Shown here in pieces: positions 18,476 through 32,761 of a stretch of DNA of 64,000 bases (the first letter of the stretch is position 1; each line of letters begins with the position of its first letter). Below the pieces are notes generated by a model that did not search any database, was not told where the DNA came from, and was given only the letters and a program-made list of their open reading frames with translations. The DNA comes from Candidatus Hadarchaeota archaeon (GTDB taxonomy: Archaea; Hadarchaeota; Hadarchaeia; Hadarchaeales; JAGGTB01), in contig CAZEBR010000001.1 of the NCBI GenBank assembly GCA_964510375.1, positions 37,207-101,206 of the forward strand, read 5' to 3'. A program made the translations under genes and the position numbers.

Positions 18476-18486
18476 TCATATCACCG

Positions 18487-19554: not shown

Positions 19555-19689
19555 TACAGTTCTTCCCTCTATTTTGATAATTTTCTGCTTCCCGAGCTTC
19601 GATCTGAATAAGAAGAGAGGAAAAGGGATACATTCTCATTGGCACCCCTTTCCGTCTCAATATGGAAGTAGTTGTTAGCAGTCATATGC

Positions 19690-20691
19690 CTACTCGCTCA
19701 CTTCTGGAATTTCTGTGTAGGAGAGAGAGGGTTTTTCGAACATGTCCGGGTGTAAGATATAACTCAGGACTTTAACCGCGTCTGCAAGCCTCGGTCCGGG
19801 CCGGCTGAAGATATTTTTTGGAACACTGTAGACTTGATTATCTTTAATTGCTTCGACCTCGCTGAAGCCGGGTGTATTTTTGACTTCTTCTACGGTCTTT
19901 CCGGAATGGGGAGGGACCATATAGAATTCTGGGTCCCGGCCGATCACTGTTTCCTTACTGACTGAAATATACCCTTTTTTGTCATCAAAGATGTTTTGGC
20001 CTCCACATATTTCGACTATACTGTCGATGAAGGTGTCGGAACCCATGGTGTAGATTGGGTCCCACCAGACTTGCCAGAATACTCCGGGTCTTTCGCTCGC
20101 GTCTAGATTCTCCGTTCTTTCTTCAACCTCTTGAATTTCCTCTCTCATGTTTTCAGCAATCTCTTTGGCGGTTTTCGAGGCCCCGATGGACTTTCCAATC
20201 GTTTCTATGTCGCTAATTGCATCGGGGATGTTTTCACCTTTGAAGCACAGGACCGGTATTCCGACCTGCTCGAGCTTCTGCACCCGAGATTTCGTGACCG
20301 ACTGGTATCCTCCTACGATGATCAGGTCCGGATTTGTACCGATGACCTTTTCGACGCTGGGCTTGGAATATTCCCCGATTATTTCCAAGCTGCCGTTTTC
20401 CTTTCCTTCTTCCACTTCCGGGGGATAGTCGGCGTAGCTATCCACTCCGACAACTCGGTCACCGGCTCCCAAAGCGAAGACTATCTCCGTGGTGACTGGA
20501 GTTATACAAACGATGTTTTCCGGCCTCCGAGTAATTTCGACGTTCTCTCCCCTGTCGTCCGTCACTGTTATCGGGAATTCAACACTCTTTTCCTCTTCAT
20601 TCTGCCCGCCGATAAGATTGTAAGCACCGACAGCTGAAACCACTAAAACGAGTACTATGGCGAGGTAGGCCGCTTTCTTTTTTCCGTCCAT
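19690..20691 (-). CDS. Periplasmic/extracytoplasmic substrate-binding protein (class III, BtuF/FepB-like) for iron-chelate or corrinoid ABC uptake
   Basis: N-terminal signal anchor AAYLAIVLVLVVSAVGA; binding-protein fold pattern; probable true start ATG at 20691 (ORF track extends to a TTG at 20724). Confidence 0.7.
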   Translation of the reverse strand: MDGKKKAAYLAIVLVLVVSAVGAYNLIGGQNEEEKSVEFPITVTDDRGENVEITRRPENIVCITPVTTEIVFALGAGDRVVGVDSYADYPPEVEEGKENGSLEIIGEYSKPSVEKVIGTNPDLIIVGGYQSVTKSRVQKLEQVGIPVLCFKGENIPDAISDIETIGKSIGASKTAKEIAENMREEIQEVEERTENLDASERPGVFWQVWWDPIYTMGSDTFIDSIVEICGGQNIFDDKKGYISVSKETVIGRDPEFYMVPPHSGKTVEEVKNTPGFSEVEAIKDNQVYSVPKNIFSRPGPRLADAVKVLSYILHPDMFEKPSLSYTEIPEVSE

Positions 20692-20718
20692 GCTGTTTGC
20701 CCTTTTGTTGGATTTTTT

Positions 20719-20734
20719 ATCCAACTAGTTGGAT
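20719..20734. promoter_or_regulatory. Perfect 16-bp palindrome ATCCAACTAGTTGGAT, candidate operator upstream of the ABC uptake operon
   Basis: Read directly; centred ~35 bp upstream of the ATG at 20691, in the only intergenic gap preceding the binding-protein/permease/ATPase operon. Confidence 0.35.
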
Positions 20735-20859
20735 AGTATGTCCAGCCTTTTTTAAGTTTTACCGGATTTATCCCGCGAAATTTGTTAAGTCACAAATTGA
20801 ATTTTCGACATCTGACTTCTTTGAAGCACGGAACAGAATCTCTGAGCTTTCGTTAAGGT

Positions 20860-21489
20860 TCAGAATCCGCGGGTTCTTCTCAAAACAAGGTAAAACCCAA
20901 GGGCTACAGGGATCATGACGAGCCCGATCATAATCCACTGAACTCCCGGAGAATCAATATTGGCAGAGGAGGGATCGGGATCATTTGTTGATCCTTCTGA
21001 ATTTTCTTTTCCGATCATGCTCAACAGCTCATTCTCGTGAATTATCCCAACATGGTAAGATTTGACTTGCCCGTTCTCGACCACGAAGGTTGTAGGCGTG
21101 CCCTCCACACCGTACTCTCGGGCAACTCCCGGGGCCTGAATTATAGGCCATTCGAACTGGTAGTCAGTTTTGAATTTTTCAAGATCTTCCCTCGAGTAGT
21201 ATGACCCTGTTTCCACAGAGAGAAAACTCACACCCCTACTTTCGGAAATTTCGTTCCTTGCCTTTTTCCATTCGTCGATCTCTCTCTGACAGGGCTCGCA
21301 CCCAATGTTCATAAAGTTTAGAATCAGAGTCTCGTTTTCATAATCCTCAAGACTTACCGACTCTTCCTGGGTCTTGACGGTGAACTCTGGAGCTTTTTCG
21401 CCGACCGATGGTTTTTCCAAAGCCCGCACGGTCGGAGTCGAGAGGAAAAGGACCACCATGGCCAAAACGCAAAAGATTCTTTTCTTCAA
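20860..21489 (-). CDS. TlpA/ResA-like thioredoxin-fold thiol-disulfide oxidoreductase with C-terminal membrane anchor
   Basis: CEPC active site in redoxin fold; signal peptide; C-terminal PGV + hydrophobic helix + RRTRGF tail; probable TTG start at 21489 with GGAGGA RBS (ORF track start 21540). Confidence 0.6.
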   Translation of the reverse strand: MKKRIFCVLAMVVLFLSTPTVRALEKPSVGEKAPEFTVKTQEESVSLEDYENETLILNFMNIGCEPCQREIDEWKKARNEISESRGVSFLSVETGSYYSREDLEKFKTDYQFEWPIIQAPGVAREYGVEGTPTTFVVENGQVKSYHVGIIHENELLSMIGKENSEGSTNDPDPSSANIDSPGVQWIMIGLVMIPVALGFYLVLRRTRGF

Positions 21490-21543
21490 AACTATTCCTC
21501 CTCTTTTTCTTAAACGAAACCTTTCTTTTAAACACCTCAATCC

Positions 21544-22692
21544 TTACAGGGTCGTGAAAAGGTACAGGCTCAAGGCAAGGATCACGAGGCCGGAGACGAG
21601 CTCCACACGCTCCCTGTTATCCCTCCACCATTTCTTCGCACGAACCCTCTTACCCGACAGGAAGCACGTCCCGAGCAAGATTGCTAGAAACGGAATTATG
21701 AAAATAAAATTGTAGAGGAGCAATAACGGCACTCCCAAGATGGGAGATTTTGAAATGAAGCTGATGGCCACGAAATAAGGTCCAGAGGTGCACGGGAGCA
21801 GTAACAGGGACGTGGCTAGGCCGAAAATGAAAGCTCCCAACATCCCCTCGTCAAATCTTTCAAGAAGACCTCCGGAACCCATCCCCTCTTTGGCCTTTTC
21901 GCTAAACGAGTCCGGAGTCAGTGTAATTCCGTGATTGAGGAAATAATTAGAAGCCTCCAACAGACCGACTGCAATTCCAAAAACCACGACGAGATACCTG
22001 ACTCCCGGAACCGTGGACACTATCTTCCTCAACCCGAACCCGAGGCCGAGATAGGTCAGGAAAACTCCAAAAACAAAACAAAGGCCAAGTTTCAGAGGGG
22101 AGGAGAGCCGGATGGCGACAACCGTGAGAAACACTAAGAACAGGGTTAGGGCGCACGGGTTTACAGAATCGGCGAAAGCAGCCGTCACCACGGGAAGGAG
22201 CAGACTCGTGAACGTAGGGCTTTCCGGATCCACTTCTCGAAGGAACAGTTTTTCCACGTACTCGGAATTCTTCAACCGGTTATTCTCCCTATTATAGTAG
22301 GCACGTTTTTGGTCGGTCGGTTGATTTTTCCAAAAATTTTCGTCAGAGAAAAGATCACAGTACCCGCCGGTCACAATCCTTAACTCCCCATCCTGAAACA
22401 CCCCAACTAGGGGTGTATCCCCCCGCCTTCCTGGAAAGACCGTCGAGTAGATCCCGTCAAAATATTTAGAATTTGCATTTTCCGAAAGGGAATAGAAAAC
22501 TATAGAACTCTCCCCGTACACGTCCTCCAACGTCTTTTCGACCCTCTCGCAAGAAGAGCAAAACTCGTCACCAAACACCACCACTTTCGAACCAGATTCA
22601 CCTCGAGATCCGGCCCCAGCGACAGGTAAAACGAGCAGAGAAACCAAGAAAACCAACATGAGAGTGGATACGATTTTTTCCCGATTTATCAT
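21544..22692 (-). CDS. CcdA/DsbD-family transmembrane thiol-disulfide transporter fused to N-terminal thioredoxin-like domain
   Basis: CSSC motif in N-terminal soluble domain; CcdA-type TM core with conserved NPC and LPCTSGP cysteines; start probably Met at 22692 (signal peptide MINREKIVSTLMLVFLVSLLVLPVAGAG). Confidence 0.6.
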   Translation of the reverse strand: MINREKIVSTLMLVFLVSLLVLPVAGAGSRGESGSKVVVFGDEFCSSCERVEKTLEDVYGESSIVFYSLSENANSKYFDGIYSTVFPGRRGDTPLVGVFQDGELRIVTGGYCDLFSDENFWKNQPTDQKRAYYNRENNRLKNSEYVEKLFLREVDPESPTFTSLLLPVVTAAFADSVNPCALTLFLVFLTVVAIRLSSPLKLGLCFVFGVFLTYLGLGFGLRKIVSTVPGVRYLVVVFGIAVGLLEASNYFLNHGITLTPDSFSEKAKEGMGSGGLLERFDEGMLGAFIFGLATSLLLLPCTSGPYFVAISFISKSPILGVPLLLLYNFIFIIPFLAILLGTCFLSGKRVRAKKWWRDNRERVELVSGLVILALSLYLFTTL

Positions 22693-22833
22693 TTTATCCC
22701 AGTTTATGTCCTCGAGTTTCTTTTCCAAAATGATACTAATAAGGTTACAAAAAATCGAAAAGAACTTTGTTTTTGTTATGGGTGTAACAAAAATTAGACT
22801 AGGCCTCAAACGAAAACTGTTTATCTCTCAATT

Positions 22834-23115
22834 CTATTTTTTGTATGCGTTTTTTCTGTGAAAAATGGATAAAAACCTGATCTCTCCACCCAAGATGTCG
22901 AAAAATGCTCGATAATCACCGATCCTTAATCTCCAGACACGCTTTTCGGGAATGTATTTTGTACTACCGTGCTGTCTCGGGTCGATAGAATAATCGTTCA
23001 CTTGTTTACCGAACTCTCGAAGTTTTTTCAGAACCCTCTCCCTGGTCTCGCTCGGCAGTTTTTCAAGATTTTCGTCAAATTTTTGAGTACGGGTGAGTTT
23101 AAAAGAGCTCGTCAA
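22834..23115 (-). CDS. RelE/ParE-family type II toxin
   Basis: C-terminal ..RVWRLRIGDYRAFFDILGGEIRFLSIFHRKNAY pattern; likely TTG start at 23115 overlapping antitoxin stop by 17 nt (ORF track start 23181). Confidence 0.5.
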   Translation of the reverse strand: MTSSFKLTRTQKFDENLEKLPSETRERVLKKLREFGKQVNDYSIDPRQHGSTKYIPEKRVWRLRIGDYRAFFDILGGEIRFLSIFHRKNAYKK

Positions 23116-23317
23116 GCGGTTTCCCCTCTTGCTTTCTAGCCTCTTCGATATCCCGTTTTGCCTTTTCAGAAAGCTCGGCATCTTCGACCTTTCGAAGTAG
23201 AGATCTTAGAAACTCGCCTCTAGAGGTAAACCTCCCCGATTCTACCGCCTTGTCGATCCGTTCGATCTGTTCTTCCGTCGCTTTAAAGCTCACGTTTTTC
23301 GTCTCGGACATTGCCAC
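23099..23317 (-). CDS. Ribbon-helix-helix (CopG/RHH) antitoxin
   Basis: 72 aa; N-terminal beta-strand plus two helices (VSFKATEEQIERIDKAVESGRFTSRGEFLRSLL); immediately upstream of and overlapping the RelE-like ORF. Confidence 0.55.
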   Translation of the reverse strand: MAMSETKNVSFKATEEQIERIDKAVESGRFTSRGEFLRSLLRKVEDAELSEKAKRDIEEARKQEGKPLDELF

Positions 23318-23454
23318 ACACCTTCAAGTATTCTATACGATACTTTAGTAATAAAATCTTTTTTTTGGTTTTTGTTGATCAAAAGTGTTCCACTTATACT
23401 ACACTTCTAAAAACACATATTGAAGAAAAAAGGACCGATAGGAGGTGAGACGCT

Positions 23455-24271
23455 TTTGGACAACAAAGTAACCTATGGAGTAATACTAACTATTGTAGTA
23501 ATGATAGCAGGAATTAGCACCTTTGTAATAATCCAAGGAAACAACCCCAACGACACCGAGGACCCTATCAAAGATCCTACAGACAACCAAAACCACATCG
23601 ATGATAATGAAAATGTTGAAAACGAGACCGTCCAGTTCAAATACGTCGTTTCCATGAAGTACACCGACAATAGAGAAAACATACCGAGAGAAGGTCTATC
23701 CATCTATACCCCAATGCCCTTTTTGTGGAGCCCCGATGAAAACATCTTTCAGCATGTTGTGAGGACTGTCGAAAAAAATGTGAAGAGAGTGAAGAGCATC
23801 ACTTGGAAGATTTGGAAAGATAACACTTTACAGATAGAGAATGGTCACGTTAAAGAACTCATAAGTCCGAGAGAACAGAACGTGGACAATTTTTTTAATG
23901 TAGTAGGGCTTGAATGGTCAGGACGGCTTGTATCTACTCTTGCCAAGGAAAACTCTCAAGTAATGTACGAAAATGAAGTACTTAGAGTGAAAATTCCTTT
24001 CAAGGTATCAAAAGAAAATTCAGACATAGTAAGAATACCAGGCGTATTCTTAAACGAAAACCCTAGTAAGATTTCAGGTGAAATTAAAACCTTCAACGTC
24101 AGAAAGGAAGATAATCATCTGACAAATGAGGAGCAGCTCTATCCAGGGAAATGCCGGTCGGTCGTAAAGTTGTGCAGAAAAGAAAACGGGATGTATAGGA
24201 CTATCGAAAAGTACGTTGGTAAACAAACCAGCTCAAATGAATCCACTTTTATACTAGAGAGAACCGAGTGA
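23455..24271 (+). CDS. Hypothetical N-terminally anchored extracytoplasmic protein
   Basis: GGAGGTGA RBS 6 nt before TTG at 23455; TM anchor VILTIVVMIAGISTFVIIQG; AT-rich coding relative to neighbours; no recognisable domain. Confidence 0.4.
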
Positions 24272-24349
24272 TAAACACCTTATTTTTGCCGTTTTTTTAT
24301 ATTGTTTCTTATTTTCGAGTTTAAAGAGGTAGTAGAAGACGGGGGCGTA

Positions 24350-27300
24350 CTAACGTTCGTATTCTGGAGTTGTAATCTTTTTATACTCTTTCCAATCGTA
24401 CTTCGCAGATCCCGGCCAGGGCGGACTGGGGGGAGTTCCTGGATCAGTAACGTACTCATCTGGATCCCCCCACATGTATCCCATGTCAACATCGTCATGT
24501 CCGTCAAGATTGTAATCGTTTACAATGTTCCAGAAGGATTCAAGCACTTTCTCGTTCGAAGCCTCGACAACCCACGGTGTCGGAACAGGGCTACTGTAGG
24601 AAAGCTCTCCTGACGAAATTGGGGTATGAGACTCATCCATAGATATCAACATGTAGCCTTTGTACGTGTGAGTGACGTTTTCGAGATCCTCAGTATAACC
24701 CATACTATTCGTCCTCATGTATCCTCTCGTTATACTCTCACCGAGACCCTTGTTGATCAATTCGATGATATCGGAGGCAGCCCCTTGTTCTGACAGTTCA
24801 TCTTCTGCTAAATTTGATTCGATATATCTTATTATTTTCACTTTTACGCCATCATAATCCCAATACTCGTAAATTTTCACATCACCCGAAATCGATCCAG
24901 GACTGTTGCACAGATAAAATGTGCGGCCTATAAGTTCTGAACTCGATCCTAAATTTGAGCTGCCTTCCCCATCCGTGCCATCTCCTTCTTTGAAGTGTGC
25001 GATTCTCGTCTCGTCTTTGACAATTTTGAAACTGATCGATTTTCGAGTGCTTTTATAGTCGCTGGTGGGGTTGCCGTCCGTCCACTTTTCCCACTCTCCC
25101 TGTGGGTGTGCGGTGAGTGTGACTTTGTTTCCGAATTTTACCTTGTAATTGTCTCCTGCGGCTTGGTTTATTGTCTCTCCCGTTTTGTGGTTCTGGTACT
25201 CTACAGTTCCCGGGCCTTTCTTTCCAAGCTCAAGCTCGTACTCGGCCTGGTAATAGGCGGTGAGGGTTGCTGATTCTCCATTATCGACCGTGACCGTATC
25301 ATCGACCTTTAAAAGTTCGTACTTGGTGCCGTTCATCGTGAACTTTTGGGGCGGGTTCAGCGTGTAAGATCCTGTCGGTACTGGGTAGGTTTGCCCGCTT
25401 TCACCCGTGAAGGGTTGTTCCCCGTTCACGTTCATGGCGTTAAGGCCGAGAGTTTCGCCGGTTCGATTGTCTTTCGCTAGAATGGTGAGGTCGGCGCTTC
25501 CCGGCATGGGTGCTTTGACCTGTCGAGTGTCCAAGATTTCGGTTGTCGTTTCCGGTGATGGTTTGTCGCTTTGAAGGTTCAGGTTGTAGTTTTTGGACTC
25601 GCTCCACACTGTACGGGACTGTGGCGGGTTTGAGGGTGTTCCGATGATCTCTACCGTGTGTGTCGATCCGGTCATTTCGGGATTGGGCTGTACCTTCACG
25701 GTTTTGGGGTTATAGCACGCGTCGCACACTTGGCGACAGTTTTCTTCGACAGTTTCTGTACACGTGTCGTAGCACGTTTCGCAAACTTGGTGACAGTTTT
25801 CGACGGTTTTTGTACAGTTATCGTAACACGTGTCGCACTCTTCGTGGTGGCTACAGCCATAAAGAGCGGAATTGCACTGCCGCCCGTCACAGTCACACTC
25901 CCAAGAATTAGGTCCCCAACTGCAAATGCACACTTCTTCACAGTTACAATCGTGCGGGTTGCACTCGTAAGTGACCGTGGTGTTTTCGCACTCTTCGTGA
26001 CAGCACTCGTGAGGGTTACAGTCATAGGTGCGCGTTGTAGTGTCGCACACCTGGTGACAGTTGCAGTCGTTCGGGGTATAGGTGGGTGTGTGTTCGATCT
26101 CCACCTGCATGCTTCCTTCCGAAACTTCCGAGAGATCGACCGTCCCGCTGTAATTGTTCTTGGAGACGACATCGACGGTGACGCTTTCCGAATTCCAGGG
26201 ACCCGCCTCGTATTCTTGTTCGTATTTTTTCCGCCTGACGAGGTTTTCTACCCTGCGCTTTATCACGCTCAAAGTTCCCGACTTTTCGATCACTGTAGCG
26301 TATTCGCCTCCATTGTTTTGGGCGAACTGTTCGGCTTCAGATTTGTCCAGGAAGGCTTCCGTCCGGAACCACGGGTCGAGAGAATCATATTCGAGGGTTC
26401 CCGAACCGTTCTCGGAGGATACGTGGAAAGTGACATTTTGAACTTCTTCGTGTTCTCTGGCGCTCTGATACTCGGAATAAGTGCCCGTTTTGGTGGTGGC
26501 TTCATCCCATTCTAACGCCCAGTCTCCAGTGCTTAAAACTTGGCGATTGTCGGTTATTTGCCCGGCGTTGCCAGCTTCGGATTTTTTATCGAACCATTCG
26601 GAGTGGTGTGTGCCTTCTTCCCATTCTACTCTGTAATCGTATCCTCCTTCCCAGTGGCCACCGGACACCCACTCGTACTTGTAATCGTAGGTCCAGTTAT
26701 TGCATTCGTCTTTTTCAGTTTTCACGAGATTTCCACTTACGACGCTGCTACTGTAACTGTCCTGCCACCAGGTATCGGTGCAAGTGTCATAACAGGTTTC
26801 ATAGCAGGTGTCGTAACAGGTATCATAGCAAGTCTCGCACTTTTCGTGACAGTTACATTCGTAGGATGAATAACAAGTGTCGTAGCAAGTATCGCAAACT
26901 TCGCCACAGTTACATGAGTAAGTAGAGCTGCACGTGTCGTAGCAGGTATCGCACTCTTCGTGACACTCTTCCTCCTGCCAACAAGTCGTGTATGCGCATT
27001 TGGTTACGGTTTCACAAACCTCGTGACAGTTACAATCGTGCGGATTACAGTCGTAATAGGTAGTACACGTGTCGCACTCGGAGTGACAGTTACAGTCGTG
27101 GGGATTGCAAGGGTATGATCGAGTGCACGTGTCGCACACTTCGTGACAGTTGCAGTCATGCGGGTTGCAATCGTGAGGGTTACAATTGTAAGGATTACAA
27201 TCGTGTGGATTGCACTGGTAGGATTCTTCGAATTTGTACTTGTAGTCCCATTCTGTGCACTCGTCTTTTCTAGTATTGACGAGCGTAAGGTCCGAATAAG

Positions 27301-28336
27301 GATTGTCCGAGTCTAATTTCTCGTCAAACCATTCTGTTTCTTTTTCCAGAATGTAATCGTGCCTTGAGTTCCAGAAACGCTCTATAGTAACATTTCTAAC
27401 GCCAGATTGACTTTGCAATGAGTTTTTCTTGTCCTCAGCAGCAGATTGCGTATCAAGCTCGGTCGAGTGATCACTCCAGGTGGCCCACTCGGCCTTGTAC
27501 TCGATCTCGGGTCTTGAAACGATCTCGCCGTCAAGATCATTATTTGTGGCGTAATTACTTGCAGCGTAGTAGGTGTCGTGTCTTTTACTCTTATGCTCGA
27601 CTTCCTCCCACTCTACCGTGGTCCTGTCCAGAACGTTTTGAGCATAATACTCGGCAAGGTAATAAGTCGCTGTATCCTCCTCAATCTCCCACCCGTCAGT
27701 TTCTTGGGCGGCGTTCTGAAATTTGTTAGTCCATTCGAAATCTTCAAAATCTAAGATGACCTCGTAATTTTCCCAAACTACTCTGTCCTCTATCCATTTA
27801 GTGCTGACAAGCTCTTCCCCTCCTAAAGTATAGTTTCGAGAGATCGAATCAGTAGTTTCTGAAAGTTCTATATCGAAAGGGTCGTAGGTTAGCGGTATCG
27901 AAAAACTGACCTTTCCACCCTTACCCACAGTTTTGGTTTTCGATTTTTCTCCAAACCCTCTCCATCCCCCATCTAGAGGACCGTCTGCCTTTTCGTTCCT
28001 GTTTTTATCACCCGCAATCACCGTCACCGAGTGTAATCCCCCGCTCAGATTGTCAATCTCTATACTAAAATGACCGCTATCGTCTGCAAAGACGTCATCC
28101 CGAACTCTCGTCTCCGAGTTTACCACTATGGTCACGGGGGCATTGCTTTCCGTATGCCCTTCTATTAAAGTGATATCGTCCTTGTCTATAGTAATCTCGT
28201 AGGCTCCATAATCTCTGGTGGCTTTGTCGTTATTTTCTGGAGCATGTACGTTGATTGGAAGGGAAGAAAGCAAAAGAAAAGCCAAAGAAATAGTCACTAA
28301 TACTTTCTTTAAAATTTTAAAATCCCTTTTTCTCAA
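24350..28336 (-). CDS. Giant (1328 aa) secreted protein with two arrays of Cys/His-rich CNPHDC-NCHEVC-DTC-type repeats; function unknown (putative surface/metal-binding protein)
   Basis: Uninterrupted 3987-nt ORF; signal peptide MRKRDFKILKKVLVTISLAFLLLSSLPINVHA; repeats such as CNPHDCNPYNCNPHDCNPHDCNCHEVCDTC and CYDTCYDTCYETCYDTC; no known domain recognised. Confidence 0.7.
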   Translation of the reverse strand: MRKRDFKILKKVLVTISLAFLLLSSLPINVHAPENNDKATRDYGAYEITIDKDDITLIEGHTESNAPVTIVVNSETRVRDDVFADDSGHFSIEIDNLSGGLHSVTVIAGDKNRNEKADGPLDGGWRGFGEKSKTKTVGKGGKVSFSIPLTYDPFDIELSETTDSISRNYTLGGEELVSTKWIEDRVVWENYEVILDFEDFEWTNKFQNAAQETDGWEIEEDTATYYLAEYYAQNVLDRTTVEWEEVEHKSKRHDTYYAASNYATNNDLDGEIVSRPEIEYKAEWATWSDHSTELDTQSAAEDKKNSLQSQSGVRNVTIERFWNSRHDYILEKETEWFDEKLDSDNPYSDLTLVNTRKDECTEWDYKYKFEESYQCNPHDCNPYNCNPHDCNPHDCNCHEVCDTCTRSYPCNPHDCNCHSECDTCTTYYDCNPHDCNCHEVCETVTKCAYTTCWQEEECHEECDTCYDTCSSTYSCNCGEVCDTCYDTCYSSYECNCHEKCETCYDTCYDTCYETCYDTCTDTWWQDSYSSSVVSGNLVKTEKDECNNWTYDYKYEWVSGGHWEGGYDYRVEWEEGTHHSEWFDKKSEAGNAGQITDNRQVLSTGDWALEWDEATTKTGTYSEYQSAREHEEVQNVTFHVSSENGSGTLEYDSLDPWFRTEAFLDKSEAEQFAQNNGGEYATVIEKSGTLSVIKRRVENLVRRKKYEQEYEAGPWNSESVTVDVVSKNNYSGTVDLSEVSEGSMQVEIEHTPTYTPNDCNCHQVCDTTTRTYDCNPHECCHEECENTTVTYECNPHDCNCEEVCICSWGPNSWECDCDGRQCNSALYGCSHHEECDTCYDNCTKTVENCHQVCETCYDTCTETVEENCRQVCDACYNPKTVKVQPNPEMTGSTHTVEIIGTPSNPPQSRTVWSESKNYNLNLQSDKPSPETTTEILDTRQVKAPMPGSADLTILAKDNRTGETLGLNAMNVNGEQPFTGESGQTYPVPTGSYTLNPPQKFTMNGTKYELLKVDDTVTVDNGESATLTAYYQAEYELELGKKGPGTVEYQNHKTGETINQAAGDNYKVKFGNKVTLTAHPQGEWEKWTDGNPTSDYKSTRKSISFKIVKDETRIAHFKEGDGTDGEGSSNLGSSSELIGRTFYLCNSPGSISGDVKIYEYWDYDGVKVKIIRYIESNLAEDELSEQGAASDIIELINKGLGESITRGYMRTNSMGYTEDLENVTHTYKGYMLISMDESHTPISSGELSYSSPVPTPWVVEASNEKVLESFWNIVNDYNLDGHDDVDMGYMWGDPDEYVTDPGTPPSPPWPGSAKYDWKEYKKITTPEYER
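25720..26100 (-). repeat. Coding tandem repeat block 2 (second Cys/His-rich array of giant protein)
   Basis: Same unit types repeated (gtcgcacacttggcgacagtt, gtcgcactcttcgtggtg, ttcgcactcttcgtgacagc). Confidence 0.6.
26760..27230 (-). repeat. Coding tandem repeat block 1 (Cys/His-rich repeat array of giant protein)
   Basis: Reiterated GCA/ACA-punctuated 9-15 nt units on plus strand (reverse complement of TGC/TGT codons), e.g. gtcgcactcttcgtgaca, gtcgtagcaagtatcgca. Confidence 0.6.
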
Positions 28337-28418
28337 ATAAAACCCAAAATATTGATTTTACGAATAATTATAAAATTATTCCTTCTTTGTCAGGGATATA
28401 TTCTATAAATTGCTTTTT

Positions 28419-29162
28419 TTATAAATCAGAATCCCCGTCCGTTTCCGGGATAGGTTCGGCAATTAACAAGACACATTTTTCGCATATATTTCGAATGGTC
28501 TCCTTTTCCAGTATGTTTTGTTCGAAATATTCGTGTATATCTGGCAATATGTTCCAAGTAAAGTAATGGAACTTGATCGTGTCCGAATTCTTTTTATCTT
28601 CGCTGTATTCTGTTACCGATTTCACTGTGTTTTCTATCGAACTTTTGCAACAGTTTCGGACATCATCCGTGGAATCGGAGAATGATGCTCCGTTTTTCAG
28701 ACAGTCTTGAAACTTTTTACCCGTTCTATAGATTAGTTCTCTGTAAAGCTCCAAGATGTCCCGGATGGTCAGCCAGCTCGAGCGAGCTTCAATACTTTCG
28801 ATTTTATTGATGCCTATCCCCTCCGATATTCTGTTTATTAGTTTGTCGTTTAATATCAAAATCGGCAGTTTCAAGTGTGCGCTCAGCATTAGTCCGCGGA
28901 GGTCCGTTAGTGCCACGTTGTGTTCGACTCTGAACATTATCTGTCTGCTTAATTCGTCGTAAATGTCGGGCAAATGGGCGGGGTAAACGTCCCCTTTTCT
29001 GACGAGCTTACTGATGAGGCTGTGCTTTACGGATTCCTTTCTAACCTCGATAAGCTTGGATCTCGATAGCCAAGAATACGTGGAGCTGGGTATGTAAAGG
29101 CCGGAATTTGGAAATAGCTTTTTGGCTTTTTCGAGCGATGTCCTGTCGGTCAAGGCACTCAC
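28419..29162 (-). CDS. Hypothetical protein (247 aa), no recognisable domain
   Basis: Long ORF, AT-rich, located between the giant Cys-rich gene and the cyclophilin-like gene. Confidence 0.4.
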   Translation of the reverse strand: MSALTDRTSLEKAKKLFPNSGLYIPSSTYSWLSRSKLIEVRKESVKHSLISKLVRKGDVYPAHLPDIYDELSRQIMFRVEHNVALTDLRGLMLSAHLKLPILILNDKLINRISEGIGINKIESIEARSSWLTIRDILELYRELIYRTGKKFQDCLKNGASFSDSTDDVRNCCKSSIENTVKSVTEYSEDKKNSDTIKFHYFTWNILPDIHEYFEQNILEKETIRNICEKCVLLIAEPIPETDGDSDL

Positions 29163-29283
29163 GTCACAGACGGTCCCGAAATCCTGTATCGTCAGTTTTA
29201 ATCCCGTTTCCGTTTTCCGGCAAGATGGTTTTTAAGCTCGAAACAATCCGCATTTTTTAAAAGATATTTCCCCAATTTCCCTT

Positions 29284-29646
29284 TTGAGCATGTCACGAAA
29301 AATCAAGATCGAGACGGACGATTTCGAGGTCGTGGCGACATTACTCGAAGAAGAACGTCCCGAAACCTGCGATGCCGTCTGGGATGCCCTGCCGTTTGAG
29401 GGTAAAGCCTCTCAGTACAAGGAAGAAATCTACTTTGACATACCCATGGACATGGGTCCGGAGGACGCTACCCCCCAGACGGAGAGGGGCGACGTTTCCT
29501 ACTGGCCCGAGGGCCCGGCCTTCTGCGTCTTCTACGGCGATTCACAGCCGGTCAGCCCCGTCAACACCTTCGCCGAGATAGAGGGAGGATTGGAGAAATT
29601 TCGCGAAGTCCAGAGCGGCGATGTGGTGAGGGTAAGCAGAGCGTGA
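29284..29646 (+). CDS. Cyclophilin-like superfamily small protein (PF04126/DUF3830-like)
   Basis: 120 aa; pattern ..A..L.....P..WGDE.YF..P.....GDVSYWPEGPAFCVFYG........FAEIEGGLEKF....GD.V.V. Confidence 0.4.
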   Translation: MSMSRKIKIETDDFEVVATLLEEERPETCDAVWDALPFEGKASQYKEEIYFDIPMDMGPEDATPQTERGDVSYWPEGPAFCVFYGDSQPVSPVNTFAEIEGGLEKFREVQSGDVVRVSRA

Positions 29647-29786
29647 TGCGTTGTCCTATCGCTGTCTCTCCGAAAAAATCTCCAAATAGGGCCGTTATAA
29701 TCGATTAGGTGTATAATTCTTCCACGATTTCTCCGATTCGGCAAACATAAATTGGTGAAGCCGAGAAATAAATAAAAGGTGCATTT

Positions 29787-30209
29787 ATGTCGGGTGACTC
29801 GGACGAGCTGGACGAGCTTCTCGAGGATGAAGATATCGAAGTGGACAGGGATAGCATAAGCGACATCAGCGACACCATTCAGTACGTAGAGGAGGAGCTG
29901 GAGAGGGTATCGGACCTTCAGATGACCTATACCGGGAACCTTCTTAAGATCGGTCTTCTCGCCTGGATTTTCGGTTTCTCCGTGTTTGTCTGGGAGCTCT
30001 TGATACTGGGCGGACCGGGCTTCGAGTTCATCGATCCCACCATTTCTATCCCTCTCCTGGTGGCAACGGGTGCCGCACCGGTCGTGATCATGATTTTCCT
30101 GATCCAGAGCAACCGGAAGAGGCTGAGCAGATTGCGTAGGATTCGGAAGAAACTCCAGTCCGAGTACCACTCGACCGTCATGGACAAGGTGGAGAGAGAG
30201 GTAGCGTGA
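29787..30209 (+). CDS. Hypothetical membrane protein with acidic N-terminus and two TM helices
   Basis: 140 aa; DELDELLEDEDIEVD acidic head, two hydrophobic helices, basic C-terminal RKRLSRLRRIRKK. Confidence 0.35.
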   Translation: MSGDSDELDELLEDEDIEVDRDSISDISDTIQYVEEELERVSDLQMTYTGNLLKIGLLAWIFGFSVFVWELLILGGPGFEFIDPTISIPLLVATGAAPVVIMIFLIQSNRKRLSRLRRIRKKLQSEYHSTVMDKVEREVA

Positions 30210-30763
30210 AGTCGCTCGATTTTCTGTATCGGTCATTTTGAAGCTATCTGAGGTATTCTAAACATTGATATCTCTCGTTCGGTTCATTTTCCGGGAGAGT
30301 TGTAGTCAGCAATTATTTCAAGCAAACATATTGACAAACCTTATGGGACAAATGGGAACTAAATAAATAATTTTTACTTCAAAAAAGAATTTTTAGTCTA
30401 TATCGTCCTATTTTAATGTCATATATTGGTTTTTTTGATATATATTGAGATAAAAAACTATATATTTTCTTTTTTGGTTCATTCTTTCTTTTTCATGCGA
30501 AGCTTTAACACACTTTGTCTTGTTTAGATACTGGAAGCAAGAGGTCTATTTTCAAATATTTCTGAGGGGGAACGCCTTTTGGTAGATGTCTGATTTCGAA
30601 TTAGCGTTGAATCGGGCCTAGAAGAAAATGAAAATTGACTTTTAGTTTCTGGGAGCGAAGAATGATTATGAAAATTTGTGGTCATATCGAAATTGGATTT
30701 AACATTCCCCCCGTGATATCGGGTTACCAGAGCCGAGGTACTGATTGTGGTGAGGTGATTTAA

Positions 30764-31033
30764 ATGGATGGAGGAAACGGTGCGGAACTACTCGAGCGTT
30801 TCATGATTATACTGTCGGATCGAGATTGGCACACGATAGAGGATATCGCAGACGAGCTTTCCCTGTCCTTAGATAGCCTCAATGAGTTTCTGATTGAACT
30901 GGAGGATGCGGAGATAGTTCTTGTCGAAGGGGATAAGTATAAGAAAACCAATCTCGTCAAGGGCACGGATTTTGTCGACAGATTTTTAGAACTTCCGGTC
31001 GAGGAAGACTTTCAAGGTATGGATGGTAAGTAA
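30764..31033 (+). CDS. Small winged-helix (HTH_45-like) protein, paralogue 1
   Basis: 89 aa; ..IL.....W.TIEDIA.EL..S...L.EFLIELEDAEIV... pattern shared with the two following ORFs. Confidence 0.4.
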   Translation: MDGGNGAELLERFMIILSDRDWHTIEDIADELSLSLDSLNEFLIELEDAEIVLVEGDKYKKTNLVKGTDFVDRFLELPVEEDFQGMDGK

Positions 31034-31071
31034 ATATTACGGTATCATCGGTTTTAGCAAGGGGAGTTTTA

Positions 31072-31332
31072 ATGACAAAAATAAGGAGCCAGATTACAAG
31101 AGAGATACTCCAGATCGTCCAAGAGGCCGATGAATGCCATGAGGAAGACATTGATAAAGGGGTTGATCTTGATCGGGATACCCTCCAAGAATATGTTTCA
31201 ATTTTGATTGACGAAGGGTTCTTGAAAGAACATCATAGCAAAGCGAGGTACGAACTTACGGACAAAGGAGAGGCGATGATGAGGGCTTTTGGAAAATTGG
31301 ATGATATTACTTCCATTTCTATTGTTCTTTGA
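31072..31332 (+). CDS. Small winged-helix (HTH_45-like) protein, paralogue 2
   Basis: 86 aa; I.REILQIV.E...C.EEDI........TLQEYVSILIDEGFLKE......YELTDKGEAMM. Confidence 0.45.
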   Translation: MTKIRSQITREILQIVQEADECHEEDIDKGVDLDRDTLQEYVSILIDEGFLKEHHSKARYELTDKGEAMMRAFGKLDDITSISIVL

Positions 31333-31429
31333 ATACTTGTGGTTAATTGCGAACAATTAATACGTAATGAATCCGTAACACATTTGGAATGTTAATCAAA
31401 TAATTAAAATTCTAAGCAAGGTTCGAATA

Positions 31430-31696
31430 ATGACTAGATCTAAAACTGAGATTGTTAAAGATATTCTTGAAACTATAAAGGAGAATGAATCTTGTAAAAA
31501 GACCAGTATAGTTAGACTAGCTAATTTAGATTGGGATATGGCTGAAAGATATCTTAGCACGCTTTTAGAAGAGGGATTCGTGGATAAAAAAACGGAGGAA
31601 GGGTCTAGAGGGAAGGAATCCTATTTTCTGACTGAGAAGGGCGAGAGTCTTTTAAAAACTGTGAAGAAGATGAGTAAAATAAGTTCAATTTTTTGA
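31430..31696 (+). CDS. Small winged-helix (HTH_45-like) protein, paralogue 3
   Basis: 88 aa; IVKDILETIKENESCKKTSIVRLANLDWDMAERYLSTLLEEGFVDKK......YFLTEKGESLL. Confidence 0.45.
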   Translation: MTRSKTEIVKDILETIKENESCKKTSIVRLANLDWDMAERYLSTLLEEGFVDKKTEEGSRGKESYFLTEKGESLLKTVKKMSKISSIF

Positions 31697-31915
31697 ACTG
31701 TAGTTGTTAATAAATACAGATAATTATCTGAATATGGGAACGAAGAGGAGAAAGGGGGCTAACGGGTGAGCAGGTTTTTCGTCAGGCTGGCTACTGTATG
31801 GATTTTCGAAGTGAAATTCTGAGGGGAAAGCCTAATTCGACATTGAGTCTATTCTGAAAAGCTCCTTTGGCCAAAATTTTATTGGTTCTGCGAAAGAGTT
31901 AGACCTGCGATTCAA

Positions 31916-32761
31916 ATGGGAAAGCCGAAAAACCTCAAAGAGGCCCTGGAGGGAGAGTTCACGCAGGAGGAGTTGGAAAAAGTAGGGACTTCCTTCGACG
32001 TCGTGGGTGACATCGCCGTAATTAAGCTCCCTGATGAGCTCCTGGAAAGGAAGGGGATCGTGGGTGAGGCGCTGATGGAGGTTCATGGAAACGTCAAGAC
32101 CGTTTTGCTCCAGACAGGTCCCGTGGACGGCGAGTTCAGGATCAGGGAGCTGGAAGTGATCGCCGGTGAGGATAGGACCGAAACCGTGCATAAGGAGTAC
32201 GGTTGTTCATTCGAGGTTGACTTGGCCGAGGTCTATTTCTCCCCTCGTCTGGCCAACGAGAGGTTTCAGGTAGCCAAGAAGGTGGAGCCCGACGAGGTGG
32301 TTACTAACATGTTCGCAGGAGTTGGCTGCTATTCCATTCTTATGGCGAAACATGCCGATCCCGAAAAGGTCTACTCGATAGACAAGAATCCAAAGGCCGT
32401 CGAATACATGAAACGGAACGTCAGGACCAACAAGGTTAGCGGCACAGTGGTCCCTGTGGAAGGGGACGCCCGCGAAATGATAGAGAAGTACTTTGAGGAC
32501 AAGTCCGACCGCGTCCTCATGCCCTTGCCGGAGTTCGGCAGGGATTTTTTCGGTGACGCCCTCAAGGCGCTGAAGCCGGAGGGGGGGATAATTCACTTCT
32601 ACGACTACGGAGAGGACCCCGATCTGTTCGGACCATCGCTGGATTTCGTTAGAGATGAGGCTTCCGGCAAGAGTGTGGAGCTGAGGGACAAGCGAGTCGT
32701 CCGATCTTACGCTCCGAATCTATATCACGTCGTCTTGGACCTTCAGATAGAGCCGAAATGA
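31916..32761 (+). CDS. Trm5/Tyw2-family class I SAM-dependent tRNA methyltransferase (Met-10+ like; tRNA m1G37 methyltransferase)
   Basis: 281 aa; D1-like N-terminus then VVTNMFAGVGCYSILMAKH SAM-binding motif and acidic loops typical of archaeal Trm5. Confidence 0.7.
   Translation: MGKPKNLKEALEGEFTQEELEKVGTSFDVVGDIAVIKLPDELLERKGIVGEALMEVHGNVKTVLLQTGPVDGEFRIRELEVIAGEDRTETVHKEYGCSFEVDLAEVYFSPRLANERFQVAKKVEPDEVVTNMFAGVGCYSILMAKHADPEKVYSIDKNPKAVEYMKRNVRTNKVSGTVVPVEGDAREMIEKYFEDKSDRVLMPLPEFGRDFFGDALKALKPEGGIIHFYDYGEDPDLFGPSLDFVRDEASGKSVELRDKRVVRSYAPNLYHVVLDLQIEPK

What the first reader, a model, noticed from the sequence alone, without database searches (positions are those of the whole stretch)
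22834..31830. AT-richer accessory island: toxin-antitoxin pair, secreted unknowns, giant Cys-rich protein, 520-bp non-coding gap and three tandem wHTH genes
Between the thiol-disulfide operon and trm5, the coding sequence is visibly AT-richer than the flanks. Gene content switches to a RelE/RHH toxin-antitoxin pair, anchored/secreted hypotheticals (23455-24271, 28419-29162, 29787-30209), the giant repeat protein and a cyclophilin-like ORF. It ends with a 520-bp AT-rich intergenic region (30237-30763) followed by three paralogous ~88-aa wHTH genes, each with its own AT-rich leader. This composition is typical of horizontally acquired or rapidly evolving surface/defence-related islands, although no integrase or tRNA boundary is visible.
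Basis: seen in the sequence. Interest (0 to 1): 0.5.

Follow-up and report, generated by a model that had tools for sequence, protein, structure and literature searches.

The report
Mosaic variable locus, not one island
The supposed 9-kb "island" in this uncultured archaeon is mostly an inherited cell-surface gene cluster with two small strain-specific insertions next to it; the only unusual part is an undescribed cysteine-rich module spliced twice into its giant surface protein.

Summary
The window comes from an MSBL1/Hadarchaeia archaeon (closest Trm5 76% identical). Most of the listed features exist, but they do not form one acquired island. GC is 44.3% against 47.0% for the window. That dip comes from intergenic spacers, the 283-aa gene and two small wHTH genes. 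The giant gene (GC3 z 0.04) and the 247-aa gene (z -0.04) have average codon usage.

Eight relatives share the backbone NurA-HerA-[anchored protein]-[giant secreted protein]-[247-aa protein]-cyclophilin-like-[140-aa membrane protein]-trm5. So 23420-30209 is inherited, fast-evolving core.

Two blocks are strain-specific:
- A 1.7-kb stretch at 30210-31915 (554-bp spacer plus three wHTH genes).

There is no tRNA, integrase, boundary repeat, or viral, plasmid or defence signal. The "secreted" 247-aa protein is a cytoplasmic PIN-fold protein. Only two of the three wHTH genes are demonstrable paralogues (Sso10a/HTH_45).

The giant protein's 65 cysteines lie in two blocks that its orthologues lack (0-11 Cys). 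The blocks match a rare, unannotated bipartite Cys module found in unrelated extracellular proteins.

The parts
17204..22809 (-). Five co-directional genes: ABC ATPase (17204-18475), FecCD-type permease (18487-19554), Peripla_BP_2 binding protein (19690-20724), membrane-anchored AhpC/TSA-thioredoxin-like protein (20860-21540) and a DsbD/CcdA-like polytopic protein with an N-terminal thioredoxin-like CSSC domain (21544-22809).
   Evidence: Pfam hits. The DsbD-like call rests only on a weak Thioredoxin_2 hit (0.0046), multiple TM segments and Cys motifs read from the sequence. No homologue lies between HerA and the p283-like gene, or anywhere else, in the fetched stretches of L001, L014, L016 and L023. 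Composition is normal (GC3 z -0.3 to 0.7; tetranucleotide z -0.78).
22834..23115 (-). ParE/RelE-family toxin. Likely 93 aa from TTG 23115; the longest ORF runs to ATG 23181.
   Evidence: PF05016 3.3e-10 and PHROG RelE-like 4.8e-12. Start position read from the sequence. No match in any of the eight relatives' fetched stretches.
23099..23311 (-). RHH (CopG/ParD-type) antitoxin, 70 aa from ATG 23311.
   Evidence: PF01402 4e-06 and PF03693 9e-06. Below threshold for TIGR02606 ParD. Translation.
23420..24271 (+). p283: signal-anchored (one N-terminal TM) extracytoplasmic protein of unknown family. A positional and remote sequence counterpart follows HerA in relatives.
   Evidence: TM at residues 15-41. 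27% identity with L023_272 (8e-07) and 20% with L016_272 (3e-05). No Pfam, PHROG or NCBIfam hit. Lowest GC among the larger genes (39.4%; GC3 z -1.28).
24350..28336 (-). Giant secreted protein (1328 aa) with a signal peptide and an N-terminal Ig-like region. It is a lineage-specific orthologue family with a hypervariable body.
   Evidence: Signal peptide. Weak Big_6 hit. Collinear with P0155/L021_1402 (27% over 590 aa, 2e-35). 44.5% identity with L014_1437 and 51% with P0002 over the Ig region. Only 8 family clusters found among 1.84e9 representatives. Codon usage is average.
26702..27259 (-). Cys/His-rich block 1 of the giant protein (aa 360-545, 38 Cys). Built from units such as CNPHD-CNC-HEV-CDTC and CYDT runs.
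   Evidence: DNA repeat families D1-D5 and TRF periods of 12-60 nt. The region is Cys-free in orthologue P0155. Matches P0159 at 6.6e-10 and nine further proteins.
25718..26068 (-). Cys/His-rich block 2 of the giant protein (aa 757-873, 26 Cys), related to block 1 at the DNA level.
   Evidence: Repeat families D1-D5 link 25.7-26.1 kb with 26.8-27.2 kb at 61-88% identity.
28419..29195 (-). p247: cytoplasmic PIN-fold (VapC-like) domain plus a roughly 120-aa helical C-terminal domain. It is a Hadarchaeia-restricted family always found beside the giant gene. The first canonical start (GTG 29162) lies after the conserved first Asp.
29284..29646 (+). Cyclophilin-like protein (PF04126/DUF3830). A core gene, GC-rich at 56.7%.
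   Evidence: PF04126 4.6e-29. 56-69% identical orthologues at the same position in L001, L016, L020, L021 and L023.
29787..30209 (+). p140: two-TM membrane protein with an acidic N-terminus. A core gene that directly abuts trm5 in relatives.
   Evidence: TM segments. 39-58% identical orthologues in L021, L020, L018, L001 and L023, each 39-99 bp from trm5.
30210..30763 (.). 554-bp AT-rich (33.9% GC) spacer at the start of the right strain-specific stretch. No recognisable gene or RNA.
   Evidence: Only ORFs of 53 aa or less. No Rfam hit at E <= 1. RNA fold z -0.58. No copy elsewhere in the window or in the fetched loci. Absent from five relatives.
30764..31033 (+). w1: 89-aa probable wHTH protein, not detectably related to w2 or w3.
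   Evidence: Sub-threshold MarR, HTH_69 and HTH_45 hits (0.04-0.08). AF2 single-sequence pLDDT 59 with an H-H-H-beta-beta topology. Pairwise comparison with w3 is not significant.
31072..31332 (+). w2: 86-aa HTH_45/Sso10a-like wHTH protein.
   Evidence: PF14947 1.7e-11 (above cutoff). NCBIfam Sso10a 34.7 bits, below the cutoff of 60. 32% identical to w3. GC3 z -1.65.
31430..31696 (+). w3: 88-aa Sso10a-family wHTH protein. The most compositionally deviant gene in the window.
   Evidence: PF14947 2.1e-21. NCBIfam Sso10a_fam 70.2 bits, at or above the cutoff of 60. PDB 1R7J Sso10a 4.7e-06. GC 34.1%, GC3 z -3.04. A 100%-identical w3-trm5 junction appears on Logan contig L013.
31916..32761 (+). trm5: the right-hand conserved anchor. 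It is followed by PRC-barrel, metallophosphoesterase and IleRS genes, as in all relatives.

Best explanation
The 9-kb stretch is a mosaic, not a single island.

(1) Inherited core, 23420-30209. This is a lineage-specific cell-envelope locus of MSBL1/Hadarchaeia archaea lying between NurA-HerA and trm5. It encodes a signal-anchored protein, a giant secreted Ig-fronted surface protein, a PIN-fold cytoplasmic protein, a cyclophilin-like protein and a small membrane protein. Gene order is conserved. The surface proteins diverge very fast, presumably through in-place replacement and repeat expansion of protein segments. That gives the look of an island without horizontal transfer. Synteny is shown; the cause of the fast divergence is inferred.

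(2) Two insertions in this organism's lineage.
- A seven-gene, co-directional block at 17204-23311: a FecCD-type ABC importer, a membrane thioredoxin-like protein, a DsbD/CcdA-like protein and a ParE/RHH addiction pair. Its composition is native-like.
- A 1.7-kb AT-rich stretch at 30210-31915: a 554-bp spacer plus three small winged-helix DNA-binding genes, two of them diverged Sso10a/HTH_45 duplicates. These most likely act as small dimeric transcription or chromatin regulators. The spacer most likely holds their promoter and operator DNA.
The direction of change (insertion here rather than loss elsewhere) is inferred by parsimony from 4-5 relatives.

(3) Cys/His-rich blocks. Only in this organism, two segments of the giant protein were replaced by Cys/His-rich blocks of 38 and 26 Cys. 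They belong to a rare bipartite Cys module also seen in unrelated extracellular proteins. In the clean examples of that module, the two Cys arrays have equal numbers. I therefore infer that the arrays pair one-to-one, as a disulfide or metal-thiolate ladder forming a rigid extracellular stalk. The adjacent thioredoxin-like/DsbD-like pair may service it; that link rests on adjacency in this one genome.

The GC dip is the sum of ordinary AT-rich intergenic DNA, p283 and w2/w3.
For: SYNTENY
- HerA, p247, cyclophilin-like, p140, trm5, PRC, metallophosphoesterase and IleRS orthologues appear in the same order in L021, L023, L016, L014, L020, L018 and L001.
- The giant is collinear with its L021 orthologue.
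- In L014, L016 and L023, HerA is followed within 60-112 bp by the p283-like gene, with none of the seven left-block genes. In L001, about 0.9 kb without convincing genes leads straight to the cyclophilin-like gene.
- In five relatives p140 is 39-99 bp from trm5, against 1706 bp here.

COMPOSITION
- Tetranucleotide distance is z -0.78 for the left block and z 2.43 for the right stretch.

FAMILY ASSIGNMENTS
-.

CYS MODULE
- 65 Cys here against 0-11 in ten family members or orthologues.
- The exhaustive phmmer search found 10 module-bearing proteins, best E 6.6e-10.
- Array counts are 10/8/10, 10/8/10 and 7/8/7 Cys.
- There is no Pfam, NCBIfam, PDB or literature match.
Against: - The relatives are distant (Trm5 67-76% identity), so 'insertion here' versus 'loss elsewhere' rests on parsimony over few genomes. 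No close strain was found.
- I could not check whether the left block sits elsewhere in the relatives' genomes, because only 11-21 kb around the locus was fetched.
- The left block has native composition, so there is no positive signal of foreign origin.
- No mobility signature (repeats, integrase, tRNA) marks either insertion.
- The pairing model for the Cys module is inferred from counts in three proteins. The window's own blocks are an irregular, interleaved version (16 CNPxx/CNC-type against 20 CxxT-type Cys in block 1, by my reading).
- The one other genomic context examined for a module-bearing protein (L024) has no thiol-redox genes.
- The function of the spacer and of w1-w3 is untested.
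Confidence: 0.72

Rival explanations
1. One reading: 22834-31830 is one horizontally acquired accessory, surface or defence island.
For: It is the lowest-GC 9-kb stretch of the window. Its tetranucleotide distance has z 2.36. It contains a TA pair and many orphan genes. Contigs of several relatives break near this locus.
Against: Five of its genes are syntenic orthologues in up to seven relatives. The giant and p247 have average codon usage. The cyclophilin-like and p140 genes are GC-rich core genes sitting in the middle. There is no integrase, tRNA or boundary repeat. PADLOC, PHROGs, viral-contig and plasmid searches gave nothing specific. Much of the k-mer deviation peaks on the giant gene's internal repeats (maximum at 25.5 kb).
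Confidence: 0.06
2. The two 'strain-specific' blocks are ancestral and were deleted in the sampled relatives, or moved elsewhere in their genomes. On this view the window shows the primitive arrangement.
For: The left block has fully native composition. The locus is visibly prone to gene loss and gain in relatives: the carbamoyltransferase-like (OTCase-family) gene, the cyclophilin-like gene and p140 are each missing in some. An HTH_45 gene 36% identical to w3 exists elsewhere on L016.
Against: It needs independent losses in four (left block) and five (right stretch) relatives. w3's GC3 (z -3.04) is the most deviant in the window, which is hard to reconcile with long residence. TA pairs are typically mobile (established knowledge).
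Confidence: 0.15
3. The right-hand stretch (spacer plus w1-w3) is a decayed remnant of an integrated archaeal virus or plasmid, with small wHTH regulators as its last surviving genes.
For: AT-rich with low GC3. w2 and w3 hit PHROG transcription-regulator families and the F-93 (SSV1) winged-helix Pfam below threshold. The long spacer without a gene could be decayed coding DNA.
Against: No relative of w3 was found in 2.9 M viral contigs. The stretch has no plasmid DNA match. There is no integrase, att-like repeat or tRNA. tblastx of the stretch against the relatives' loci found nothing beyond one weak w3-like HTH_45 match on L016. Sso10a/HTH_45 proteins are ordinary chromosomal genes in archaea (NCBIfam and PDB naming).
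Confidence: 0.12
4. Assembly or binning artefact: the window-specific blocks are chimeric joins in a metagenome-assembled genome.
For: The source is evidently a MAG (145-kb NCBI contig). The locus is a frequent contig break point in relatives.
Against: A Logan assembly of run ERR5414649 reproduces the w3-trm5 junction at 100% identity, although it may come from the same reads. Genes run intact across all junctions, and the flanks on both sides of each block are syntenic with relatives.
Confidence: 0.03

Closest known systems
Genomic islands and integrative elements (tRNA- or integrase-bounded)
   Same: Strain-specific gene content, a TA addiction pair, a local GC dip, orphan surface proteins.
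   Different: There is no integrase, tRNA target or flanking repeat. The bulk of the stretch is syntenic core. The strain-specific DNA forms two separate blocks, and one of them has native composition.
ParDE / RelE-RHH type II toxin-antitoxin modules
   Same: The toxin passes the Pfam ParE_toxin threshold and the antitoxin passes RHH_1 and ParD_antitoxin. The antitoxin is upstream with overlapping reading frames. Both genes are small.
   Different: No NCBIfam equivalog is reached. Activity and target (gyrase or ribosome-dependent mRNA cleavage) cannot be assigned from sequence.
Sso10a / HTH_45 small winged-helix DNA-binding proteins of archaea (PDB 1R7J, 4HW0)
   Same: w3 passes both the Pfam HTH_45 and NCBIfam Sso10a_fam thresholds and matches 1R7J. 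w2 passes HTH_45. Both are about 87 aa and match over their full length.
   Different: w2 is below the Sso10a cutoff. w1 is not a detectable member. The tandem trio behind a 554-bp spacer is specific to this genome. The match to 1R7J covers chain residues 4-76 of 95, so the C-terminal coiled coil that dimerises Sso10a was not verified.
VapC / PIN-domain nucleases
   Different: No Pfam PIN model matches. There is an extra roughly 120-aa helical C-terminal domain and no adjacent VapB-like antitoxin. The family is Hadarchaeia-restricted and is fixed next to a surface-protein gene. In this genome the first Asp lies upstream of the first canonical start codon.
CXXC-rich surface proteins and disulfide- or metal-ladder repeats (Giardia VSPs, metallothioneins, Tenebrio antifreeze beta-helix). 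An analogy recalled from memory, not tested here.
   Same: Extracellular proteins with dense, regularly spaced Cys in CxC, CxxC and Cx3C motifs, with His, Asp and Glu nearby.
   Different: There is no sequence or profile match to any Pfam, NCBIfam or PDB entry. The architecture is distinctive: (C-N-P-H/Y-x)n ending in CNC, an 8-Cys linker, then (C-x-x-T)n of equal Cys number. It is spliced into unrelated carriers: pilin-like proteins, a zinc-ribbon/TM family, a T9SS lipase and this archaeal giant.

Membership tests
Integrase/tRNA-type genomic island | Site-specific recombinase or integrase gene in or next to the block | tested here: not met
   Pfam on all ten island ORFs and the ten flanking ORFs found no integrase. 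The only related hit was Phage_int_SAM_5 at E 0.093 on p247, which is a PIN fold.
Integrase/tRNA-type genomic island | tRNA/tmRNA target and flanking direct repeats | tested here: not met
   ARAGORN found 0 genes in 64 kb. No repeats at 22.8/31.8 kb or at the redefined edges.
Integrase/tRNA-type genomic island | Absent as a unit from related genomes | tested here: not met
   p247, the cyclophilin-like gene, p140 and the giant gene's N-terminal region are present and syntenic in relatives. Only 17204-23311 and 30210-31915 are absent.
Integrase/tRNA-type genomic island | Atypical composition or codon usage across the block | tested here: inconclusive
   The mean GC is the lowest in the window, but gene by gene only p283, w2 and w3 deviate. 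The giant and p247 are average, and two genes are GC-rich.
Type II TA, ParE/RelE-RHH | Toxin matches the ParE/RelE superfamily above threshold | tested here: met
   PF05016 40.8 bits against a cutoff of 23. PHROG RelE-like 4.8e-12.
Type II TA, ParE/RelE-RHH | Adjacent upstream small antitoxin with an RHH DNA-binding fold, forming a bicistronic arrangement | tested here: met
   PF01402 26.9 bits against 20.5 and PF03693 26.5 against 21. 17-nt overlap, same strand.
Type II TA, ParE/RelE-RHH | Toxic activity neutralised by the antitoxin | not testable with these tools
   Needs expression assays.
Sso10a / HTH_45 wHTH proteins | Profile match above the curated cutoff | tested here: met
   w3: PF14947 76.2 against 25.5 and NF053610 70.2 against 60. 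w2: PF14947 44.4 against 25.5 but NF053610 34.7, below 60. w1: not met (PF14947 13.4).
Sso10a / HTH_45 wHTH proteins | Dimerisation through a C-terminal helix or coiled coil, and DNA binding | not tested
   The 1R7J match covers chain residues 4-76 of 95. No model of w2 or w3 was built.
PIN-domain (VapC-like) nuclease (p247) | PIN fold | tested here: met
   [not shown]
PIN-domain (VapC-like) nuclease (p247) | Four conserved acidic active-site residues | tested here: inconclusive
   D11, E81, D98 and D116 are invariant or nearly invariant in the family. I did not verify their spatial equivalence to the VapC catalytic residues. In the window D11 precedes the first canonical start codon.
PIN-domain (VapC-like) nuclease (p247) | Sequence-profile membership (Pfam PIN families) and a cognate VapB antitoxin | tested here: not met
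   No Pfam hit at E <= 0.1 other than noise. None of the 28 homologues carries a Pfam domain. The neighbours are the giant gene and the cyclophilin-like gene.
DsbD/CcdA thiol-disulfide transporter (21544-22809) | Match to the DsbD/CcdA transmembrane family profile | tested here: not met
   Pfam at E <= 1 gave only Thioredoxin_2 (0.0046, below cutoff) for the N-terminal domain. The assignment rests on multiple predicted TM segments and Cys-Pro motifs read from the sequence.

The most novel reading that the evidence does not exclude
The Cys/His-rich blocks of the giant protein may be copies of an undescribed, horizontally shuffled extracellular domain. The domain would consist of a pentapeptide Cys array (C-N-P-H/Y-x)n ending in CNC, an 8-Cys knot, and a tetrapeptide array (C-x-x-T)n with the same number of Cys. 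The two arrays would zip together one-to-one as a disulfide or metal-thiolate ladder whose length is set by matched repeat expansion. The domain occurs in bacteria (pilin-like proteins, a T9SS lipase, a zinc-ribbon/TM family) and, here, in an anaerobic archaeon. In this genome it arrived together with, or was followed by, a neighbouring thioredoxin-like/DsbD-like pair that may maintain it.
Probability: 0.35. Interest if true: 0.6.

Novelty: new member of a known kind. Interest (0 to 1): 0.33.

Why it matters
As an 'island' the stretch is ordinary. It shows that a GC dip plus orphan genes in a poorly sampled archaeal lineage can mimic horizontal transfer, when the genes are in fact a conserved but fast-evolving surface locus.

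Three by-products may be useful:
- A syntenic marker locus (HerA ... trm5) for comparing MSBL1/Hadarchaeia genomes and their surface-protein turnover.
- A Hadarchaeia-specific PIN-fold family permanently linked to the giant surface-protein gene.
- A rare, unannotated Cys module with matched array lengths. If the pairing idea holds, it would be a new, length-tunable cross-linked protein scaffold.

Tried and rejected
- tRNA/tmRNA scan of the window: none.
- Rfam at gathering thresholds over 64 kb: none. Rfam at E <= 1 over the island gave only a plant-miRNA chance hit at 23365-23472.
- RNA fold of the 554-bp spacer: z -0.58, not structured. Small ORFs in it are 53 aa or less, and no conservation was found.
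- Copies of the spacer elsewhere in the window or in the fetched loci: none. It is not related to the equally long gap at 46.6 kb.
- Boundary repeats at three candidate pairs of edges: none.
- Viral contigs searched with w3 and with the giant: nothing.
- Plasmid blastn of 30210-31915: nothing.
- PADLOC: only generic wHTH similarity to CARF/CasR C-terminal domains, so I rejected a defence role.
- Metagenome and genome scans with Trm5: one genome relative at 67% identity (L001) and otherwise only matches at 39-45% identity; no close strain.
- Exact look-up of the giant protein in assemblies: not on record.
- TAG-as-pyrrolysine recoding, reported for some archaea in a preprint that notes MSBL1 acquired the Pyl machinery: rejected here, because TAG ends 14 of 47 genes.
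- PDB sequence search for p247 and for the Cys block: nothing.
- Literature search for the motif strings: nothing.
- Single-sequence AF2 of w1: low confidence, so no fold search was run.
- The afdb50 fold library was unavailable.
- Context of other module-bearing proteins (L024, L025): uninformative, with no thiol-redox neighbours.

Full report
IDENTITY OF THE WINDOW
The best genome-collection match to Trm5 (31916-32761) is a Candidatus Hadarchaeota MAG at 67% identity (L001). In the large protein collection, the named hits at 60-69% identity are annotated 'candidate division MSBL1 archaeon' or 'Hadarchaeia'. The closest relative recovered is about 76% identical (L021). The window's own proteins are on record from a 145-kb NCBI contig. 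So the organism is an uncultured MSBL1/Hadarchaeia archaeon with no close sequenced relative. All comparisons below are at roughly family or genus depth.

CHECKING THE OBSERVATION
GC content:
- 22834-31830 has 44.3% GC against 47.0% for the window. It is essentially the lowest 9-kb stretch (0.5th percentile, about 1.8 SD).
- The dip is not uniform. Cyclophilin-like is 56.7% GC, p140 54.1%, the giant gene 47.7%, p247 43.0%, p283 39.4%, w1 45.2%, w2 40.6% and w3 34.1%.
- Third-position GC and codon divergence were computed over 57 crudely called ORFs. That greedy caller chose the antisense ORF 29532-30236 in place of the cyclophilin-like and p140 genes. The giant (z 0.04) and p247 (z -0.04) sit exactly at the window mean. 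ParE and w1 are at -0.44, p283 at -1.28, w2 at -1.65 and w3 at -3.04, the most extreme gene in the window.

The non-coding gap:
- It really runs 30210-30763 (554 bp). Its 33.9% GC equals the intergenic norm of 35.5%.
- A 555-bp gap with the same GC lies at 46596-47150.

Gene content:
- The ParE/RelE toxin and RHH antitoxin are real.
- The cyclophilin-like ORF is real (PF04126, 5e-29).
- The giant ORF has a signal peptide and 65 Cys in two blocks, aa 360-545 and 757-873.
- p283 has one N-terminal TM helix and p140 has two. The 28419-29162 product has no hydrophobic segment.

The three wHTH genes:
- w2 and w3 are true paralogues (32% identity, E 6e-18). Both pass Pfam HTH_45, and w3 also passes NCBIfam Sso10a_fam and matches PDB 1R7J.
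- w1 is not detectably related to them. It is a wHTH only by sub-threshold hits and by a low-confidence model with the right helix-helix-helix-hairpin topology.

Boundaries:
- No tRNA, no Rfam family, no integrase and no boundary repeats were found.

COMPARISON WITH RELATIVES
I anchored on Trm5 and p247 homologues and fetched their contigs. I then ran tblastn with every window gene against them.

A conserved backbone emerges: NurA - HerA - [p283-like anchored protein] - [large secreted protein(s)] - p247 - cyclophilin-like - (carbamoyltransferase-like (OTCase-family) gene in some) - p140 - trm5 - PRC-barrel - metallophosphoesterase - IleRS.
- L021 is the closest relative: p247 58%, p140 58%, cyclophilin-like 65% and Trm5 76% identity. 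It has giant (1402 aa) - p247 - cyclophilin-like - p140 - trm5 contiguous.
- L023 has HerA - 272 aa - 516 aa - p247 - 932 aa - cyclophilin-like - OTCase - p140 - trm5.
- L016 has HerA - 272 aa - 464 aa - p247 - cyclophilin-like - trm5.
- L014 has HerA - 286 aa - 1437 aa - p247 - trm5.
- L020, L018 and L001 have p140 directly before trm5.

The window's giant is collinear with the L021 orthologue: 27% identity over 590 aa (E 2e-35), plus two further collinear segments. It shares a 44-52% identical N-terminal Ig region with L014_1437 and P0002. p283 is remotely similar to L023_272 and L016_272. So 23420-30209 is inherited core that evolves quickly. It is not an acquired island.

WHAT IS STRAIN-SPECIFIC

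(a) The left block.
- In L014, L016 and L023, HerA is followed within 60-112 bp by the p283-like gene. In L001, about 0.9 kb without convincing genes leads to the cyclophilin-like gene.
- In the window, 6.4 kb intervenes. It holds seven co-directional minus-strand genes at 17204-23311: ABC ATPase, FecCD permease, Peripla_BP_2, an AhpC/TSA-thioredoxin-like protein with TM anchors, a DsbD-like polytopic protein, and the RHH/ParE pair.
- None of these has a match in any fetched relative locus.
- Their composition is native-like (GC3 z -0.4 to 0.7; tetranucleotide z -0.78).

(b) The right stretch.
- In L021, L020, L018, L001 and L023, p140 is 39-99 bp from trm5. In the window the distance is 1706 bp at 37.3% GC, holding the spacer and w1-w3.
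- Its tetranucleotide distance is in the top 3.6% of equal-sized windows.
- A 100%-identical w3-trm5 junction appears in a separate Logan assembly (L013).
- Neither block has repeats at its edges.

Viral-contig, plasmid, PHROG and PADLOC searches gave nothing beyond the RelE-like hit on the toxin and generic wHTH similarity.

THE 247-AA 'SECRETED' PROTEIN
- It has 28 homologues, all at 31-59% identity and none with a Pfam domain. Their contigs are Hadarchaeial wherever named.
- With that alignment, AlphaFold2 gave pLDDT 87.9.
- Four acidic positions (D11, E81, D98, D116) are invariant or nearly invariant.
- The C-terminal roughly 120 residues are helical, and no fold match was sought for them.
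- In the window, the conserved N-terminus 'IQDFGTVCD' is in frame, but upstream of the first ATG/GTG/TTG. A CTG sits where homologues have the initiator Met. Either translation starts at a non-canonical codon or this copy lacks the first catalytic Asp.

THE CYS-RICH BLOCKS
- The word-indexed homologue search found only the protein itself plus two partial hits.
- An exhaustive phmmer scan with residues 1-1200 against 1.84 billion representatives gave 19 hits, in two kinds.
- The first kind is eight clusters matching the N-terminal region. This is the Hadarchaeial giant family, with 0-11 Cys each. The positional orthologues in the relatives' loci have 0-2 Cys.
- The second kind is ten proteins matching only residues 361-542 (E 6.6e-10 to 2.7e-4, 40-61% identity).

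Those ten proteins are otherwise unrelated:
- two type IV pilin-like proteins (N_methyl motif);
- five proteins with cytoplasmic zinc-ribbon-like CxxC pairs (Pfam zinc-ribbon hits in two), a TM helix and an ectodomain;
- a T9SS-sorted GDSL lipase from Chitinophagales;
- two with no other recognisable domains.
No Pfam model covers the shared region.

The shared region is a bipartite module. It has a pentapeptide array (C-N-P-H/Y-x)n ending in CNC, a linker, and a tetrapeptide array (C-x-x-T)n. In the three cleanest cases the Cys counts (array A / linker / array B) are 10/8/10, 10/8/10 and 7/8/7. Equal array lengths with a constant 8-Cys linker suggest that the arrays pair one-to-one. That is an inference, not a demonstration.

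The window's blocks are an irregular, iterated version built from units such as CNPHD-CNC-HEV-CDTC. They hold 38 and 26 Cys, both even numbers. At the DNA level the two blocks are 61-88% identical in repeat units of 12-60 nt. They replace Cys-free segments of the orthologue.

There is no PDB sequence match and no paper containing the motif strings. The only other module-bearing gene with usable context has no thiol-redox neighbours. The adjacency of the thioredoxin-like/DsbD-like pair in the window is therefore a single observation.

THE SPACER
- It has no ORF above 53 aa, no Rfam hit and no excess folding energy (z -0.58).
- It has no copy elsewhere, and tblastx shows no similarity to the relatives' loci.
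- The simplest reading is regulatory and promoter DNA for w1-w2 (38 bp apart, probably co-transcribed), possibly including decayed sequence. w3 has its own 97-bp AT-rich leader.

VERDICT
- The 'acquired island' interpretation fails its own refutation test for three-quarters of the stretch. The alternative 'rapidly evolving surface locus' is right for the core.
- The strain-specific DNA is two separate blocks, one of them mostly outside the given coordinates.
- Taken as an island, this is an ordinary example of a plastic chromosomal neighbourhood in a poorly sampled lineage.
- The element that deserves a follow-up of its own is the Cys module of the giant protein.

Noticed in passing
window 25718-26068 and 26702-27259 (giant protein aa 757-873 and 360-545); also P0159, P0163, P0168, P0003, P0160, P0162, P0164-P0167: A rare, unannotated bipartite Cys module: a (C-N-P-H/Y-x)n array ending in CNC, an 8-Cys linker, then a (C-x-x-T)n array with the same Cys number (10/8/10, 10/8/10, 7/8/7). 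It is shared by unrelated extracellular proteins of bacteria and by this archaeal giant. It is absent from the giant's orthologues. No Pfam, NCBIfam, PDB or literature match was found.
   Followed up: partly
[not shown]
   Followed up: partly
window 17204-22809 (-): A FecCD-type ABC importer, a TM-anchored AhpC/TSA-thioredoxin-like protein and a DsbD/CcdA-like protein (no Pfam DsbD hit) form one co-directional block with the TA pair. The block is absent between HerA and the p283-like gene in four relatives. It lies next to the only Cys-rich member of the giant-protein family.
   Followed up: partly
window 46596-47150 and 3883-4323: Two other long AT-rich intergenic gaps (555 bp at 33.9% GC; 441 bp at 32.0% GC). 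The first has almost exactly the length and GC of the 30210-30763 gap but no sequence similarity to it.
   Followed up: partly
L018, L019, L020 (contig ends 0.6-1.7 kb upstream of trm5); L021 (contig ends just past the giant gene): Assemblies of several relatives break inside or right next to this locus. That is consistent with population-level variability or repeat-driven assembly failure at the surface-protein locus.
   Followed up: no
L001 8446-9456, L023 4668-5681, L018 2-262, L019 1-348: A carbamoyltransferase-like (OTCase-family) gene lies between the cyclophilin-like gene and p140/trm5 in some relatives. L023 carries the OTCace Pfam domains. The gene is absent from the window, L020, L021 and L016, which is another presence/absence polymorphism at this locus.
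   Followed up: no
window 23365-23472 (+): Sub-threshold Rfam hit to plant MIR828 (30 bits against a gathering score of 69, E 0.017) in the AT-rich divergent promoter region between the RHH gene and p283. Almost certainly chance.
   Followed up: no
window 13306-14145 (+): A 279-aa protein with C-terminal double zinc ribbons lies upstream of NurA-HerA. It shows an internal 55-aa duplication (53% identity) and has no counterpart in the relatives' loci.
   Followed up: no
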